Part shown: positions 12,097 to 17,670 of the stretch, one piece after another
Layout of the letters: each line of letters starts with the position of its first letter
Numbering within the stretch: position 1 is the first letter of the stretch
IMG/VR virus record: IMGVR_UViG_2617270991_000004
Reading direction: 5' to 3' (one strand)
DNA: 19,512 bases
From: a virus
Lineage: Duplodnaviria; Heunggongvirae; Uroviricota; Caudoviricetes
The notes under the pieces: generated by a model
What the model was told of the DNA's origin: nothing
What the model saw: the letters and a program-made list of their open reading frames with translations, nothing else
Databases searched by the model: none
Position numbers and translations under genes: made by a program

Positions 12097-12299
12097 AACC
12101 TCACTCCCAGCGGACGACGGCGACGTCGGGTTGTCCCCTGTACCGACTCCGCATCATTGATCGCCCGGTTAAGCTCATCCAGAGAAGCCGCCGTATATTC
12201 AATTCTGCGACCATCTTTCTGGACAGACACCACCCGTTTACCGGTTAATAAATCAAGGCGCGCCTGACGCAGCGCCTGTAGTTCAGCGACTGTAACCAT
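12093..12299 (-). CDS. W: Head-tail connector protein W
   Basis: 68-aa ORF containing LTGKRVVSVQKDGRRIEYTAASL, matching recalled lambda gpW. ATGA overlap with B. Confidence 0.9.
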   Translation of the reverse strand: MVTVAELQALRQARLDLLTGKRVVSVQKDGRRIEYTAASLDELNRAINDAESVQGTTRRRRRPLGVRL

Positions 12300-14211
12300 T
12301 CACTCCTCCGGACAGCTTCGCTGCCAGTTCTTTAAGGGTTGGCCGGGTCGTCTCTTCTTCCCGGGATTTTGCCAGTACAGCCAGATCAAGCTGCCAGCGT
12401 TGCACGGACACACGTAATGCCGCATAGGCATACACCAGGCAGTCCAGCGCTTCGTTACGCCGCTTTTTGTTATCCCACAGCAGACGCATCTTTCCTTTTT
12501 CCCACTTCTCCACAAGCTCTTCCGCGACCAGTTGCTGCGCCTCTGTCTGCGAAAAAATCTCCGGATCATCAGGAAAACGGATGGCATACGACGTGGCTTC
12601 ATCCGCAGGCGTGGGATCGGCTTTCATACGGGCATAGAGAATTTCTTTTGCGGTGTCCGTCCCCACTTCACACAGATACACGCCCCGCTGATTGCGGGTT
12701 TTCGGCATGGTGATCACCGGCTTGCCATAGACAGATGCGCCTTTTACCGGCAGCACCCGGAAAACACCGTGTTTTTTTGACCTCTGATAGACAATTTCAC
12801 CATCGATCCCCCCGGTGTCCCAGCAGACACGGGAAATGGTCATTTCGGTTCCGTCTGCATGGCAGTATTTTTTGTTGATCGCCGCATCCACACGTAACAG
12901 CGTCTCTTCCTCATCGGGACGGCCCATAATGATGATTTTATCCACCAGAAAAGCTTCCTCTCCCGGTGCCCATCCCCAGACATACATCTCAAAACGGTTT
13001 CGCTGCGAGTCAATGCCCGCCGTCAGATAAACCACCCGGGCTGGCACCGCCGCCGTGTAATGCACGACCTTATCCATCAGTACCTGGTGATCGAGTTTTT
13101 CGCCCACGGCCTCTTCCCAGGTCTCGCCCAGCGTGGTGTTCACAAAGGTTTTCAGGCCGTTGGGATCTTTCAGTGCATCCAGCCAGTCATAGACTATCTG
13201 TACCCAGGTGGTGAACGGACTGTACGCCGTCCAGATATGGAACGTGATGGAGCGCGGCGGCGGAATTTCATTATCCGCGGCGCTGAAAAACGTCAGACCG
13301 TCACGGGTCCACATCCCCGTGTTTTCACAGATCCACCGCCCGTTGCTCTGGTCAAGCTCAGACTGATGGATCACGCAGCCATGATGTTCACAGAGGTAGA
13401 AAACGCTTTCGGGGCTGTCCTTCTCCCATTTAAGGCCAAAAGGCGTGGATTCATCGCCAAATTTCAGATACTGCTCCTCCCCACAGTGTGGGCAGGGCAC
13501 ATAAAAACGCATGAAATGCGCCGACTCGTTGGCCGCTTTTTCGATCTGGCAGGTGCCTTTGATTTTAGGCGTCGAGCCGCGAATGGATTTGGGCCATACA
13601 GAGCCCTCAATACGTTTATCCCCAAGCAGGGTTGGCGAACCCTCTTTTTCGACATCCGGTTCGAACGAGGAAAGTTCGTCATAGCAGACCACGTCCACGG
13701 ATTTTTCACGGTAGTTTTTAGCGGCAGCCCCGCCCAGGCACCAGAAGCCCACGCCCGATGAAAAACGTTTCAGCGTGAGGGTATTATCACGATGTTTACG
13801 CCCAAACCACGGTGCAAGATCGAGTAAAACCGGCACATCCCTGATCGTGGGTTCCACATGAGATTTCATAAAATCTTCAGCAGCAGAATCCGTGGGCTGG
13901 AAAAGAAGGCTGTTGCGTGATTTATGCTCAATAAAATAAGCCTCCACTCCCAGCAACATCTTTGTATAACCAACACGGGCAGATTTAATCAGATTAACAG
14001 TGCGGATCCGGTCATTCCCCATGCTGTTCATGATGGCAACCTGAAACGGCAGTGTTTCCCACCGCCCCGGGGTGTAAGATGACTCTTTCGGAAGGTAATA
14101 ATGTCGATCTGCCCACTGAACTGTCGTCAGAGGGACAGGAATTTTTAGCGCAAGGAGGCCGGTTGCTATCGCTCCTGCAGAATTAGCCGCCCTCAGTTCG
14201 TCTGAAATCAT
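12283..14211 (-). CDS. A: Terminase large subunit A
   Basis: Collinear with recalled lambda gpA ([78 protein letters not shown]). Start set at ATG 14211, which gives the lambda-like length of 642 aa; the track ORF extends to an upstream ATG at 14253. Confidence 0.92.
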
Positions 14212-14731
14212 CAATCCACCTGCGCACATTCTCACCGGCTTCAGAAGCCACATCGGATGCTTTCGCGATTTCAGTTTTCACAGCATCAAGATGTACGGGT
14301 GATATATCAGGGTATTTACGCTGCAGTGTCTGAGGGACACGGACAAGGATCCCTGATATATTCTGTGCCACTCGCTGAAAGATGTAGGTAAATAACTCCG
14401 TCTCGAGGACAAGGCCTTCCTCACGAGCATTTTTCAGCTCCTGTGCATCGGCCTGTGCCTTCGTCAGTCGGTAACGTTCGTAATCAATGGTGCCGGGCTG
14501 AAGGTCTGATTCGCTGGCAGCCCTCAAATCCTCGATCTCTTTACGGAGTTTTTCGTTTTCAATATCAGCTTCCCTCTGCGCATACCACTGAATGGCAGCA
14601 GTTGTATCAAAAACTGATTCAGTCCCTTTCCCTCCACCAGAAACTAGTGGTAACCCCTGACTCTGCCAGGCGGTGATGGTCCTGACATCAACGCCAAAAA
14701 TATCGGCCAGTTTTTTCTTATTGACGTTCAT
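14183..14731 (-). CDS. Nu1: Terminase small subunit Nu1
   Basis: 182-aa ORF starting [36 protein letters not shown], close to recalled lambda Nu1 (winged-HTH N-terminus). cosB lies immediately upstream and the 3' end overlaps the start of A. Confidence 0.93.
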
Positions 14732-14900: not shown

Positions 14901-14912
14901 AGGTCGCCGCCC
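14901..14912 (-). other. cosN: 12-nt cohesive-end sequence (GGGCGGCGACCT on the minus strand)
   Basis: Plus-strand AGGTCGCCGCCC at 14901-14912 is the reverse complement of the lambda 12-nt cos overhang. The flanking sequence also closely matches the recalled lambda left and right ends. Confidence 0.9.
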
Positions 14913-15118
14913 CGTAACCGGTCGGATCGCCGGAAAGGACCCACGAAATGATAATGATTATCATCTATATAAGGTTTATCACAACATGTGTGTACGCCAT
15001 CAAACCACGAGAAATAATCAATTATGACGCAGGTATCGTATTAATTGATCTGCGTCAAATTAACGTAAAAGCAACTTCAGATAATACAAATCAGCAACAC
15101 TGAATATGGGGAAACATT

Positions 15119-15304
15119 ATGTCATCAAAGAACAGAACCCGCAGAACAACAACCCGCAACATCCGATTTCCAAACCAGATGATTGAACAAATTAACATCG
15201 CTCTTGATCTGAAAGGTTCAGGAAACTTTTCAGCGTGGGTTATTGAAGCCTGCAGAAGAAGGCTGTCAACAGAGAGTTCGGGTATGAATTACATAATTAA
15301 GTAA
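15119..15304 (+). CDS. Small YlcI/YnfO-like protein (DUF3950-type, possibly DNA-binding)
   Basis: 61-aa plus-strand ORF MSSKNRTRRTTTRNIRFPNQMIEQINIALDLKGSGNFSAWVIEACRRRL... with a GGGGA SD. Resembles from memory the small YlcI-type proteins found next to terminase genes in E. coli cryptic prophages. Opposite in orientation to the late genes. Confidence 0.6.
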   Translation: MSSKNRTRRTTTRNIRFPNQMIEQINIALDLKGSGNFSAWVIEACRRRLSTESSGMNYIIK

Positions 15305-15436: not shown

Positions 15437-15577
15437 TTACTCAAAAAAAAGCGACGAGAAAATCAGCATCAACGAACAATAAGCGCCAATACGTGATAAC
15501 AAATGGCAGCCATATTTATCTGCAGTATAAGCAATGGACAGGATAACCACACCAGAAACCGTCAGCATAAAATCCAT
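15437..15577 (-). CDS. Hypothetical 46-aa hydrophobic peptide
   Basis: Hand translation of the minus strand gives MDFMLTVSGVVILSIAYTADKYGCHLLSRIGAYCSLMLIFSSLFFE, preceded by GGGGAAG 5 nt upstream of the ATG. Below the ORF-track size cut-off. Lies in the AT-rich gap where lambda carries bor. Confidence 0.25.
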   Translation of the reverse strand: MDFMLTVSGVVILSIAYTADKYGCHLLSRIGAYCSLMLIFSSLFFE

Positions 15578-15927
15578 TTGAACTTCCCCGGACAAAATCG
15601 ACTCATCTAAAGATTTACAGCTCTTTTTATTATCAATATGTTAAAAGTAAAATAAACAGATGTTCAATAACACGAATACAAAAACGTGCTGAAATTCAAT
15701 GAATCCATTTCTGTGTCATCAATTAATAGTGATAAACATCCGGCTTCTTCCACCATCGCACCGGACAGGCGACTATGAGGGGACAACGCCGCGCTCCGTT
15801 AACGCGGTAAACCCCGGTGTGTATCGTTTTTGATTATCCCCGCACACTCGCGCAGAGGAGTCTCCCTGTCGGGCTGCGGTCTCTGTTAATGCGGGGATAC
15901 GGCGACAATACCGCGCATCAGCAAAAC

Positions 15928-16395
15928 TTATTTCAGGCACTGAGTGCGGATATAGTCCTGTGCCCCTTCCAGTTGCTTCTGCATCGTCATCAGCCGCTCT
16001 CTGAGGGTGAAATAATCCCGTGTAACGGTGTCTGCCAGTTGGGGGCCGGTTGCATTATCCACGCGGGCGGTGCCGGTGGCTTCACGCACGGGACCTGGAC
16101 AGGTGGCGTTGATCCGCAGGCTGCGGTGACCAGCGGCAACGTCAGCGCGAAGAGTTTCATTTTCAGCTCTCGCATCGGCTAATTCCCTCGAGTATCTGGC
16201 ATCAAGTGCAGCAACATCACGCTGGCGCTGCTGCATATCAGTAATGGTTGCATTTGCCAGCTCCAGCTCACTGACTTTTTTATCGCGCTGCTCTTTGTAG
16301 GTTATGGCGTTATCACGGTAATGATTCAGCCCCAGACTAAGCGCACCACAGGCCACCAGCAGGGCAATGATGACCACGCACAGTACGCGGTTCAT
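15928..16395 (-). CDS. Rz: Spanin inner-membrane subunit Rz (i-spanin)
   Basis: 155-aa ORF with N-terminal TM segment and NHYRDNAITYK.QRDK, DMQ.RQRDVAALDA.Y..ELADA.AEN, RDYFTLRERL.TMQKQLEG, matching recalled lambda Rz. Confidence 0.93.
   Translation of the reverse strand: MNRVLCVVIIALLVACGALSLGLNHYRDNAITYKEQRDKKVSELELANATITDMQQRQRDVAALDARYSRELADARAENETLRADVAAGHRSLRINATCPGPVREATGTARVDNATGPQLADTVTRDYFTLRERLMTMQKQLEGAQDYIRTQCLK
15990..16175 (-). CDS. Rz1: Spanin outer-membrane lipoprotein Rz1 (o-spanin), embedded in Rz in another frame
   Basis: 61-aa ORF wholly inside Rz. Signal peptide plus lipobox (LVTAAC), proline-rich, CVKPP.PPAWIMQP.P.WQTPL.GIISPSE matches recalled lambda Rz1. Confidence 0.9.
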   Translation of the reverse strand: MRELKMKLFALTLPLVTAACGSTPPVQVPCVKPPAPPAWIMQPAPNWQTPLHGIISPSESG

Positions 16396-16693: not shown

Positions 16694-17227
16694 TTATCTG
16701 TCAATTCCCCAGCACGCCAGCGCACTTTCCTGGTCGCGACGGGATACCTGACCGTAACAGTTGTTTGAGCGAATACGGCAGTCTCTGCCACCGTCCTTAA
16801 TCCACCAGCGAATCGCCTCACACGCTCCCCTGCGATCACCTGCATTAATTCGTTTATAAAACGTCGACGGAAAACACTTACCGGGGCCAATGTTGTACGG
16901 ACAGAATGACGCGATCCCCGCTTTCTGGGGTTCACTCAATGGCACTTTGATGTTTTTCTCCACCCATGCCAGCGCCTTATCACGCTCAATGGCGTTAACC
17001 CGGTCGCATTTTCCCTTCGACAGCTTCATACCAGGAATAACAGGCTTACCATCCACCCGGGTGGCTCCACGGCAGATGGTCCAGATCCCCGCACCATCAC
17101 GGTATGCCGTGGTGTGGTTACCTTCTTTTTCGTCAAGAAACTGGTCGAGGATTTCAGGCGCAGACGCCCCTGCACCAATCAGCGCCAGAACGGCAGCCGA
17201 CAGGCCGTATCGGATTTTTACGTTCAT
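16694..17227 (-). CDS. R: SAR endolysin (T4-lysozyme-like muramidase, GH24) with N-terminal signal-arrest-release domain
   Basis: 177-aa ORF. Gly/Ala-rich weakly hydrophobic N-terminus (YGLSAAVLALIGAGASAP), then lysozyme-like motifs (EGNHTTAYRDGAGIWTICRG...CYGQVSRRDQESALACWG). Resembles recalled phage 21 R and E. coli Qin-type prophage lysozyme. Confidence 0.9.
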   Translation of the reverse strand: MNVKIRYGLSAAVLALIGAGASAPEILDQFLDEKEGNHTTAYRDGAGIWTICRGATRVDGKPVIPGMKLSKGKCDRVNAIERDKALAWVEKNIKVPLSEPQKAGIASFCPYNIGPGKCFPSTFYKRINAGDRRGACEAIRWWIKDGGRDCRIRSNNCYGQVSRRDQESALACWGIDR

Positions 17228-17355: not shown

Positions 17356-17670
17356 ATGCATAACCATCAACATAATTATGATTTATACCTGCAAGCCATA
17401 AATGAGCGGGTAAAATCGGAATGCCTTTTACTCCTCCCGCAAGAACACGAAGCAGTAAAGGCCATTCAGGCTGAACCGTATGGAGCTCTCACTACTGCAA
17501 CTCTCAGTATTATATCCGGAGCATTAACACCAACCTTGCTCCTTCGCCTGAAAGACAATATAGATGACTGGTTAAATGAAGAATTAAGTTACCTTGATTG
17601 CGAATGGGATAATCATTACGCCAAATCACAAAAAGATCGCCTGTTCAGACAATTATCAGGTAACAGATAA
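17356..17670 (+). CDS. Hypothetical 104-aa protein, convergent with the 330-aa gene (part of the S-R insertion)
   Basis: ATG at 17356 with a GAGGA SD 6 nt upstream; product MHNHQHNYDLYLQAINERVKSECLLLLPQEHEAVK...LSGNR. The track ORF 17104..17670 extends further 5' but that part is antisense to R. AT-rich; no family recognised. Confidence 0.6.
   Translation: MHNHQHNYDLYLQAINERVKSECLLLLPQEHEAVKAIQAEPYGALTTATLSIISGALTPTLLLRLKDNIDDWLNEELSYLDCEWDNHYAKSQKDRLFRQLSGNR

What the first reader, a model, noticed from the sequence alone, without database searches (positions are those of the whole stretch)
15119..15304. YlcI-like small protein oriented against the late operon, directly beside cos
This gene is the only one between cos and the lysis genes. 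It is transcribed opposite to everything else, has a basic N-terminus (RTRRTTTRNIRF) and a short helical core, consistent with a small DNA-binding protein. Its position at the packaging site and its orientation suggest expression independent of the late promoter. From memory, similar genes in cryptic prophages have no assigned function.
Basis: partly seen in the sequence, partly recalled or inferred. Interest (0 to 1): 0.4.

Follow-up and report, generated by a model that had tools for sequence, protein, structure and literature searches.

The report
YlcI-family ribbon-helix-helix gene beside cos
This is a real, already catalogued but functionally unstudied small prophage gene (YlcI/YnfO family) that most likely encodes a ribbon-helix-helix DNA-binding regulator made by the dormant prophage from its own promoter; it is ordinary as a find, although phage lambda's reference record does not annotate its own copy.

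Summary
The ORF at 15119-15304 (+) is a real gene. It encodes 61 aa, matches Pfam DUF3950 (E=9e-19) and NCBIfam YlcI_YnfO_N, and the same locus is annotated "YlcI/YnfO family protein" in an E. coli genome that differs from the window by 1 nt. It starts 207 bp from the lambda-type cohesive end. It diverges from Nu1 by 388 bp, the same layout as ylcI/nohD and ynfO/nohA in K-12.

Lambda has an unannotated copy at 48109-48303(c). Synonymous changes outnumber non-synonymous ones about 3:1.

Upstream lie a perfect Fur box (14949-14963) and an FNR-like box (15045-15058) placed 28.5 bp before a GATAAT -10. The homologous K-12 sites bind Fur and FNR in published experiments but were credited to nohA/nohB.

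Two reader claims are overstated. PGAP calls another small ORF between cos and Rz, and a second anti-late gene lies at 17356-17670.

Distant homologs sit in P4-like/PICI satellites behind repeat arrays.

Verdict: a known family of unknown function, probably a lysogen-expressed RHH regulator. Interest is modest.

The parts
15119..15304 (+). ylcI/ynfO-family CDS (61 aa). The RHH core is about residues 12-52. The C-terminal tail STESSGMNYIIK is specific to this module.
15108..15112 (+). GGGGA Shine-Dalgarno-like motif, 6 nt before the ATG
   Evidence: read directly from the sequence
15080..15085 (+). candidate -10 hexamer GATAAT (GACAAT in lambda and K-12). The predicted transcription start is near 15092. 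This is inferred, not mapped.
15045..15058 (.). FNR-like box TTGATCTGCGTCAA (9/10 to TTGAT-N4-ATCAA), centred at 15051.5, which is 28.5 bp before the -10. The homologous K-12 site is a perfect consensus and binds FNR in vivo and in vitro.
   Evidence: PMC1802558; PMC3688515
15017..15049 (.). imperfect inverted repeat ATCAATTATGACG / CGTATTAATTGAT (13-nt arms, 85% complementary). It overlaps the left half of the FNR-like box. It is an operator candidate only.
   Evidence: not statistically distinctive
14949..14963 (.). perfect 7-1-7 Fur box TGATAATGATTATCA
   Evidence: expected 0.04 per window; homologous nohA site gel-shifted by Fur (PMC2189734)
14969..14981 (.). second, degenerate Fur-box-like copy ATAAGGTTTATCA
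14936..14942 (-). cosQ equivalent (reverse complement of lambda GGGTCCT)
   Evidence: the identity of cosQ rests on my own knowledge of lambda
14901..14912 (-). cosN 12-nt cohesive-end sequence (reverse complement of GGGCGGCGACCT)
14183..14731 (-). Nu1-type small terminase gene, divergent from ylcI (388 bp between the two start codons)
15437..15577 (-). 46-aa hydrophobic ORF, convergent with ylcI. It belongs to the same exchangeable module as the ylcI 3' end. Its coding status is unproven.

Best explanation
The gene encodes a YlcI/YnfO-family protein (DUF3950). Its conserved first ~52 residues form a ribbon-helix-helix (RHH) module: a basic arm, the beta-strand T12-R13-N14-I15-R16-F17, helix A at 19-32, a GSGNFS turn, and helix B at 37-52.

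Like other RHH proteins, it would dimerise so that the paired beta-strands enter the DNA major groove. Dimerisation and DNA binding are inferred, not shown.

It is an accessory gene of the prophage, not part of the late operon. It lies on the opposite strand and must use its own promoter in the 207 bp between cos and its ATG.

The best promoter candidate is activator-dependent. It has a -10 GATAAT at 15080-15085 and an FNR-type box centred about 40.5-41.5 bp upstream of the predicted start. That predicts expression in lysogens under anaerobic conditions.

A perfect Fur box next to cosQ more probably controls the divergent, cos-ward promoter-like site.

The most likely activity is transcriptional repression or autoregulation at this divergent control region. 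The targets are unknown.

How firm each step is:
- Shown: the gene is real, belongs to the family, is under purifying selection, and keeps a conserved position and orientation.
- Supported: the RHH fold.
- Inferred: the promoter, FNR control and the operator.
For: - Family membership is met above curated cutoffs.
- The same locus is annotated as a YlcI/YnfO family protein in E. coli B1-56, whose sequence differs from the window by 1 nt in 19512.
- Purifying selection is evident from the excess of synonymous changes.
- RHH support comes from the profile search, the model and the fold searches. Invariant or near-invariant columns I15, R16, F17, N36, F37, S38, A39, W40, V41, A44 fit the strand core and the N-cap of helix B.
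- The layout is conserved. The gene was opposite to Nu1 or HNH and to Rz in every locus where a tblastn scan of the fetched loci detected those genes. The Nu1-to-ylcI spacing is the same as in DLP12 and Qin. Lambda's copy lies at 48109-48303(c).
- For the promoter, 70 of 89 loci carry both the Fur and the FNR-type box at fixed distances from the ATG.
- FNR ChIP-chip and EMSA were positive on the K-12 site. The lacZ fusion in that study read only toward nohA and was weak (PMC1802558).
- An FNR ChIP-seq peak was also reported there (PMC3688515). Fur gel-shifted the nohA site (PMC2189734).
- K-12 ylcI is transcribed: it forms a convergent overlap with ybcW in RNA-seq (PMC12288877).
- Distant homologs in P4-like/PICI satellites also stand alone on the opposite strand. 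They diverge from the primase operon and sit behind three copies of a locus-specific 11-16-bp repeat, the last overlapping a TATAGT -10. That is a repressor-operator style layout.
Against: - The AF2 monomer (pLDDT 70.6) models residues 8-13 as a helix rather than a strand.
- The FNR-like box in this window has one mismatch. Such matches are expected 0.7 times per window by chance.
- The simple sigma-70 scan found no promoter directly upstream of the gene. No transcription start is mapped.
- The candidate operator repeat is not statistically distinctive.
- It is absent from the 18 HNH-type loci, although their proteins keep the same NIRFPN strand residues.
- No target gene, phenotype or DNA-binding experiment exists for any family member in the literature I could search.
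Confidence: 0.6

Rival explanations
1. It is an antitoxin-like or partner-binding RHH. The conserved N-terminal domain binds DNA. The variable C-terminal tail binds and neutralises a protein encoded just downstream, such as the DUF1398 protein YdfO in the Qin type. The copy in this window would then be an orphan that has lost its partner.
For: - C-terminal tails differ between downstream modules.
- In Qin-type loci the DUF1398 gene follows 58 nt downstream on the same strand, and the pair is treated as an operon (PMC12218254).
- One database protein reads through from YnfO into a YdfO-like sequence (P0167).
Against: - In this window there is no co-oriented downstream ORF with any family support.
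- There are no PADLOC hits.
- In lambda and DLP12 the DUF1398 gene is separated from ylcI by the convergent ybcW.
- The tail changes coincide with a recombination joint inside the gene. They may therefore be junction debris rather than a partner interface.
- No toxicity of DUF1398 proteins turned up in the papers I searched.
Confidence: 0.12
2. It is a packaging-related DNA-binding protein that acts at or near cos. Examples would be modulating terminase access, termination at cosQ, or silencing transcription into Nu1/A in lysogens.
For: - In Nu1-type phages the gene always lies about 200 bp from cosN.
- One satellite homolog is fused to a small-terminase N-terminal DNA-binding domain (P0193, Terminase_2 E=1.7e-6).
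- A promoter-like site on the - strand, overlapping the Fur box, points into cos and Nu1.
Against: - In HNH/HK97-type phages the gene lies on the far side of the HNH gene from the terminase genes, and so probably not next to cos (the cos position there is inferred from HK97, not identified).
- In satellites it lies between alpA/antA-like genes and the primase operon.
- It is oriented against the packaging genes.
- From my own knowledge of lambda cos work, minimal cos fragments lacking this ORF package well.
Confidence: 0.1
3. The act of transcription is the function, and the peptide is secondary. An antisense transcript colliding with late (pR') transcription, or overlapping the convergent small ORF, would give mutually exclusive expression (an excludon).
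For: - ybcW-ylcI is listed as a convergent excludon in K-12 RNA-seq (PMC12288877).
- No intrinsic terminator follows ylcI on the + strand.
- A convergent ORF lies 133 nt downstream.
Against: - Purifying selection acts on the protein.
- The protein family is conserved down to 36% identity, with invariant residues, across genera in which the DNA is unrelated.
- There is no Rfam match.
Confidence: 0.08

Closest known systems
YlcI (DLP12) and YnfO (Qin) of E. coli K-12; Pfam DUF3950 / NCBIfam NF041551
   Same: - Same family, with 84% and 78% identity overall and about 90% over residues 1-52.
- Same place and orientation: divergent from the Nu1 homolog by about 389 bp and about 200 bp from cos.
- Same Fur box and the same FNR-type box position upstream.
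   Different: - The C-terminal tail is 12 residues (STESSGMNYIIK) and is shared with HNH-type phages such as PPyecE_EH1910.
- The downstream module carries a 46-aa hydrophobic ORF instead of ybcW/DUF1398/bor.
- The FNR box has GTCAA instead of ATCAA, and the -10 is GATAAT instead of GACAAT.
Arc and Mnt repressors of phage P22 (ribbon-helix-helix, immI region)
   Same: - Small phage-encoded proteins with a basic N-terminal arm, a DNA-reading beta-strand and two helices.
- Arc FNLRWP aligns with YlcI RNIRFP. This places N14 and R16 opposite Arc N11 and R13 (that Arc N11 and R13 contact bases is my own knowledge).
- Arc is among the Foldseek hits.
- From my own knowledge, immI is likewise a small regulatory island with opposed transcription.
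   Different: - There is no significant sequence relationship (hhalign probability 3%).
- There is no antirepressor gene under its control here.
- No operators are defined.
RHH antitoxins and CopG-family regulators (CopA_SO, VapB12, ParD, HicB C-terminal domain, 9kkd CopG-family protein)
   Same: These are the best structural and profile neighbours. They share the plan of an N-terminal RHH followed by a variable C-terminal tail.
   Different: There is no adjacent toxin gene in this window, and no defence or TA model hits.
Lambda bor/lom-type lysogen-expressed accessory genes ('morons')
   Same: The gene sits between Rz and cos on the strand opposite to the late operon, so it needs its own promoter. 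It also lies beside the variable region between itself and Rz (PMC7067206).
   Different: The product is a predicted DNA-binding regulator rather than an envelope protein. It is the constant element at the edge of the variable region, not one of the variable cargo genes.

Membership tests
DUF3950 / YlcI-YnfO family | Score above the curated cutoffs of the family HMMs | tested here: met
   Pfam PF13132 scores 67.5 bits against 25. NCBIfam NF041551 scores 35.2 against 30. All 20 aligned members hit PF13132.
DUF3950 / YlcI-YnfO family | Conserved NFS-AW motif at the start of the second helix | tested here: met
   N36, F37, S38, A39, W40 are invariant or at least 90% conserved in alignment A1.
DUF3950 / YlcI-YnfO family | Prophage location next to the packaging genes, on the opposite strand, as for K-12 ylcI and ynfO | tested here: met
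Ribbon-helix-helix (Arc/MetJ/CopG) superfamily | Strand-helix-turn-helix order, with alternating polar/hydrophobic strand residues and a G-x-S/T/N N-cap before helix B | tested here: met
   RNIRF strand pattern, helices at 19-32 and 37-52, GSGNFS turn.
Ribbon-helix-helix (Arc/MetJ/CopG) superfamily | Significant structural or profile similarity to solved RHH proteins | tested here: inconclusive
Ribbon-helix-helix (Arc/MetJ/CopG) superfamily | Obligate dimer with an intermolecular two-stranded sheet; sequence-specific DNA binding | not testable with these tools
   Only a monomer could be modelled. It puts residues 8-13 in a helix.
Type II toxin-antitoxin antitoxin | Co-transcribed adjacent toxin gene | tested here: not met
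   There is no co-oriented downstream ORF with family support in the window and no PADLOC hit.
Class II FNR-dependent promoter | TTGAT-N4-ATCAA box centred near -41.5 of a promoter with a recognisable -10 | tested here: inconclusive
   The box matches 9/10 at 15045-15058 and lies 28.5 bp before GATAAT. One-mismatch matches are expected 0.7 times per window. The transcription start is not mapped.
Class II FNR-dependent promoter | FNR occupancy and FNR-dependent transcription | not testable with these tools
   Occupancy is published for the homologous, perfect K-12 site (PMC1802558, PMC3688515). Transcription toward ynfO/ylcI was not assayed there.
Fur-binding site | 7-1-7 TGATAAT-N-ATTATCA core | tested here: met
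   There is a perfect, unique match at 14949-14963, against 0.04 expected. The homologous nohA site is shifted by Fur in vitro (PMC2189734).

The most novel reading that the evidence does not exclude
YlcI would be an overlooked regulator present in lambda itself. It would be wired to host oxygen and iron sensing, made under FNR control in the anaerobic gut. It would bind the divergent cos-proximal control region. There it would set its own level and silence the Fur-controlled promoter that reads across cos into the terminase genes. The effect would be to protect lysogens from untimely terminase expression, or else to tune neighbouring accessory genes.

Under this reading, the Fur and FNR sites long filed under nohA/nohB would really belong to a ylcI/ynfO switch. 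The satellite homologs would be the master repressors of their primase operons.
Probability: 0.12. Interest if true: 0.6.

Novelty: new member of a known kind. Interest (0 to 1): 0.3.

Why it matters
As a discovery the gene is ordinary. The same locus, in a genome that differs from the window by 1 nt, is already annotated as a YlcI/YnfO family protein.

Its value is as a tidy, testable case:
- One of the last conserved lambda-family genes without a function appears to be a ribbon-helix-helix regulator.
- It is missing from the lambda reference annotation, although it lies 200 bp from cos. It is therefore also present in lambda control DNA, and from my own knowledge in larger cos fragments.
- Published Fur and FNR binding sites assigned to the packaging-gene remnants nohA/nohB are at least as well placed to control it.

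If confirmed, this would add a host-signal-responsive regulator to the lysogenic gene set of lambdoid prophages. It would also suggest a repressor candidate for P4-like/PICI satellites.

Tried and rejected
- Rfam gathering scan of the whole window found no RNA family.
- phmmer of the protein against PDB sequences gave only a chance ribosomal-protein hit.
- PADLOC defence models gave nothing for YlcI, the 46-aa ORF or the other anti-late ORF.
- The sigma-70/terminator consensus scan found no promoter directly upstream of ylcI and no + strand terminator after it. The only nearby site is a - strand promoter-like site overlapping the Fur box.
- A three-copy AT-rich operator (CGTATTAATTGAT-like) was considered. 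With up to 3 mismatches it gave 6 matches in the window against 3.7 expected, so it is not distinctive. The motif is also absent from HNH-type upstream regions. I kept only the 13-nt inverted repeat as a candidate.
- The FNR-like box alone is not significant in this window. Its weight comes from the homologous K-12 site.
- A synonymous/non-synonymous test of the 46-aa ORF failed because the copies are too similar.
- The BFVD fold search was uninformative apart from one Arc-type hit. The afdb50 library was unavailable.
- The lambda ribosome-profiling paper (looked up as PMC3718152) and the Fur ChIP-exo paper (PMC4167408) are not held. I therefore could not check translation of the lambda ORF or Fur-dependent expression of ynfO.
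- Many apparent family members in the representative search are frameshifted lambda control-DNA reads, not real diversity.

Full report
**The observation**

The window is a lambda-type prophage read in reverse. On the - strand lie the tail and head genes, TerL (12283-14253), Nu1 (14183-14731), Rz/Rz1 (15928-16395), lysozyme (16694-17227) and a holin. The cohesive-end sequence AGGTCGCCGCCC is at 14901-14912, and the cosQ heptamer equivalent is at 14936-14942 (the identity of cosQ is from my own knowledge of lambda).

A GGGGA motif lies 6 nt upstream. The window differs by 1 nt in 19512 from a stretch of E. coli B1-56, where PGAP calls this ORF 'YlcI/YnfO family protein' WP_001329960.1.

- PGAP also calls a 46-aa hydrophobic ORF at 15437-15577 (-) between cos and Rz. 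A 55-aa spanin-like remnant lies at 15773-15940 (-).
- A second gene opposed to the late operon is annotated at 17356-17670 (+).

**Is it a real gene?**

Yes.
- It scores well above curated cutoffs for Pfam DUF3950 (67.5 against 25 bits) and NCBIfam YlcI_YnfO_N (35.2 against 30). It matches phrog_949 at E=9e-32.
- Against the lambda, DLP12, Qin and PPyecE_EH1910 copies, the first 52 codons show 14-24 synonymous but only 5-7 non-synonymous codon changes.
- Homologs at 36-60% identity occur in Salmonella arizonae/diarizonae, Pantoea, Tatumella, Serratia, Xenorhabdus, Pectobacterium and Klebsiella.
- I15, R16, F37 and V41 are invariant, and F17, N36, S38, A39, W40, A44 and C45 are nearly so.
- The family is small: 106 representatives at 50% identity among 1.84 billion proteins. 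Many of those are frameshifted reads of lambda control DNA.

**Context**

In K-12, ylcI (DLP12) and ynfO (Qin) have the same layout. They diverge from the Nu1 homologs nohD/nohA with about 389 bp between start codons, against 388 bp here.

Phage lambda has a 64-aa homolog at 48109-48303 (complement). It is 81% identical and is not annotated in NC_001416 or J02459.

In a tblastn scan of all loci fetched to that point, the gene was opposite to Nu1 (or to an HNH endonuclease gene in HK97-type packaging modules) and to Rz wherever those genes were detected. The DNA between it and Rz varies:
- the 46-aa ORF module found here;
- ybcW/DUF1398/bor in lambda and DLP12;
- DUF1398 directly downstream in Qin;
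- other content.

A recombination joint lies inside the gene. PPyecE_EH1910 shares the window's 3' third and downstream DNA almost exactly, but its 5' two-thirds and upstream region differ. The conserved unit is therefore the N-terminal ~52 residues. The tail comes with whichever module is attached.

**Fold**

The sequence reads as a ribbon-helix-helix: basic arm, RNIRF strand, helix, GSGNFS turn, helix. The evidence is as follows:
- A profile of 20 diverse members has a CopG-family RHH protein (9kkd_A) as its best PDB hit, in the right register, but at E=0.54.
- PHROGs gives a weak HicB-like hit at E=0.012.
- AlphaFold2 (pLDDT 70.6) gives helices at 19-32 and 37-52.
- The Foldseek hits against the PDB include NikR, Arc and ParD, with TM about 0.5 and all E>4.
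- hhalign puts Arc FNLRWP on YlcI RNIRFP (E=0.014, probability 3%).

None of these is significant alone. Together they make RHH the clear best reading. I put it at about 0.8.

**Expression**

Being on the opposite strand, the gene cannot use the late promoter. In K-12, ybcW-ylcI is reported as a convergent transcriptional overlap in at least 50% of RNA-seq samples (PMC12288877).

The 207 bp between cos and the ATG carry two host-regulator sites.

The first is a perfect 7-1-7 Fur box at 14949-14963. It is unique in the window, against 0.04 expected. A degenerate second copy lies at 14969-14981. The homologous K-12 sites rank among the strongest predicted Fur clusters, and the nohA site is shifted by Fur (PMC2189734).

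The second is TTGATCTGCGTCAA at 15045-15058. In lambda and K-12 it is the perfect FNR consensus TTGATCTGCATCAA. It was found by FNR ChIP-chip, confirmed by EMSA (PMC1802558), and seen again by ChIP-seq (PMC3688515).

Those papers assigned both sites to nohA/nohB. The only reporter fusion read toward nohA; its upstream primer lies inside ynfO. That fusion was weak and barely FNR-dependent.

The geometry fits a promoter for ylcI better. The box centre (15051.5) lies 28.5 bp before a GATAAT hexamer at 15080-15085. That places it near -41 of a start at about 15092, which is the class II activator position (inference).

The Fur box is about 135 bp upstream of that start. It overlaps a - strand promoter-like site, TTGTGA-16-GATAAT, that points into cos and Nu1. 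Fur therefore more probably governs the opposite direction.

Seventy of 89 loci examined carry both boxes at fixed distances from the ATG. Eighteen HNH-type loci carry neither.

There are caveats. The one-mismatch box is not significant by itself in this window, and no start site is mapped. As weak circumstantial support, the genes just downstream of ylcI in DLP12 (ybcW, ybcV) rise about 3-fold under microaerobic growth (PMC8910356).

**Distant relatives**

The true divergent homologs lie in P4-like/PICI satellites. Each is a single + strand gene between int/alpA/antA-like genes and the primase operon, and it diverges from the primase operon. A recent survey also lists YlcI/YnfO proteins in Enterobacter cf-PICIs (PMC13612085).

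Their upstream regions carry three copies of a locus-specific 11-16-bp GTG...CAC repeat. The spacings are 20-26 and 47 bp. In most of these upstream regions the second copy is followed by GTCAA, and the third overlaps a TATAGT -10. This looks like a repressor-operator arrangement and supports a regulatory role for the family. Who binds the repeats is not shown.

One satellite member is fused to a small-terminase N-terminal domain.

**Mechanism and rivals**

My preferred account, with composite confidence 0.6, is a dimeric RHH regulator made by the prophage from its own, probably FNR-activated, promoter. It would act on the divergent cos-proximal control region and possibly elsewhere.

The rivals are:
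- An orphan antitoxin-like partner binder (0.12). For it: RHH antitoxin neighbours, variable tails and the ynfO-ydfO pair. Against it: no partner is present here, and the tails coincide with recombination joints.
- A cos/packaging factor (0.10). For it: adjacency to cos and one TerS fusion. Against it: the HNH-type and satellite contexts.
- Transcription-only antisense function (0.08). Against it: clear selection on the protein.

**Comparison with what is known, and verdict**

This is a member of an already catalogued family (DUF3950, YlcI/YnfO) that remains functionally uncharacterised (PMC11551758). It best fits as an unrecognised branch of the RHH superfamily, so I rate it a new member of a known kind.

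The analysis adds three modest points:
- support for an RHH fold;
- the missing annotation in lambda;
- the re-reading of published Fur/FNR sites as a ylcI/ynfO control region.

These are testable but not surprising. Interest is 0.3.

Noticed in passing
lambda NC_001416 48109-48303 (complement); locus L005 2610-2804: The lambda reference records (NC_001416, J02459) carry an intact 64-aa YlcI homolog about 200 bp from cos with no annotated feature. Newer lambdoid records do annotate it.
   Followed up: yes
loci L009, L011, L013, L016, L020, L026, L034, L068 (genome contigs): Eight contigs of 2.6-3.6 kb were checked, including a 3566-bp 'plasmid' of Arcanobacterium hippocoleae. They come from assemblies of unrelated taxa. 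They are 98.9-100% identical (99.8-100% for seven of the eight) to the right end of lambda within 45500-48502. This is control-DNA contamination (from my own knowledge, the nanopore control strand is a lambda amplicon). It inflates the apparent host range of the family and explains reports of 'YlcI/YnfO' in non-enteric organisms.
   Followed up: yes
window 14949-14981: A perfect Fur box, plus a degenerate second copy, sits immediately next to cosQ. It overlaps a - strand promoter-like site (TTGTGA-16-GATAAT, 14984-14957) pointing across cos into Nu1. It is unexplained why a packaging site should carry a top-ranking host iron-regulator site.
   Followed up: partly
window 15437-15577 (-): This is a 46-aa ORF with two hydrophobic segments, called by PGAP (WP_000347013.1), with no Pfam, PHROG or PADLOC match. 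It is convergent with ylcI. It travels with the 61-aa YlcI tail in both Nu1-type and HNH-type phages. The copies are too similar to test whether it is coding.
   Followed up: partly
window 17356-17670 (+): This is a second gene opposed to the late operon, between holin/YdfR and lysozyme. PGAP calls it a hypothetical protein, and it matches phrog_1853, of unknown function.
   Followed up: no
window 15773-15940 (-): A 55-aa ORF overlapping the end of Rz matches spanin-like phrog_6954. It looks like a truncated copy of a 74-aa gene present at the same place in phage PPyecE_EH1910.
   Followed up: no
L166 4592-4692; L056 3891-3971; L080 3895-3983: YlcI homologs in P4-like/PICI satellites are preceded by three copies of a locus-specific 11-16-bp GTG...CAC repeat. 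The spacings are 20-26 and 47 bp, and the last copy overlaps the -10. The repeat centre differs between loci, as do the residues flanking the IRF strand.
   Followed up: partly
L166 4714-5103: This is a 129-aa satellite protein that fuses the DUF3950 domain to a small-terminase (Terminase_2) N-terminal DNA-binding domain.
   Followed up: partly
window 15017-15057: Two interleaved 8-bp inverted repeats occur at the same spacing: ATCAATTA...TAATTGAT and TGACGCAG...CTGCGTCA. They overlap the FNR-like box and are conserved in lambda with one change.
   Followed up: partly
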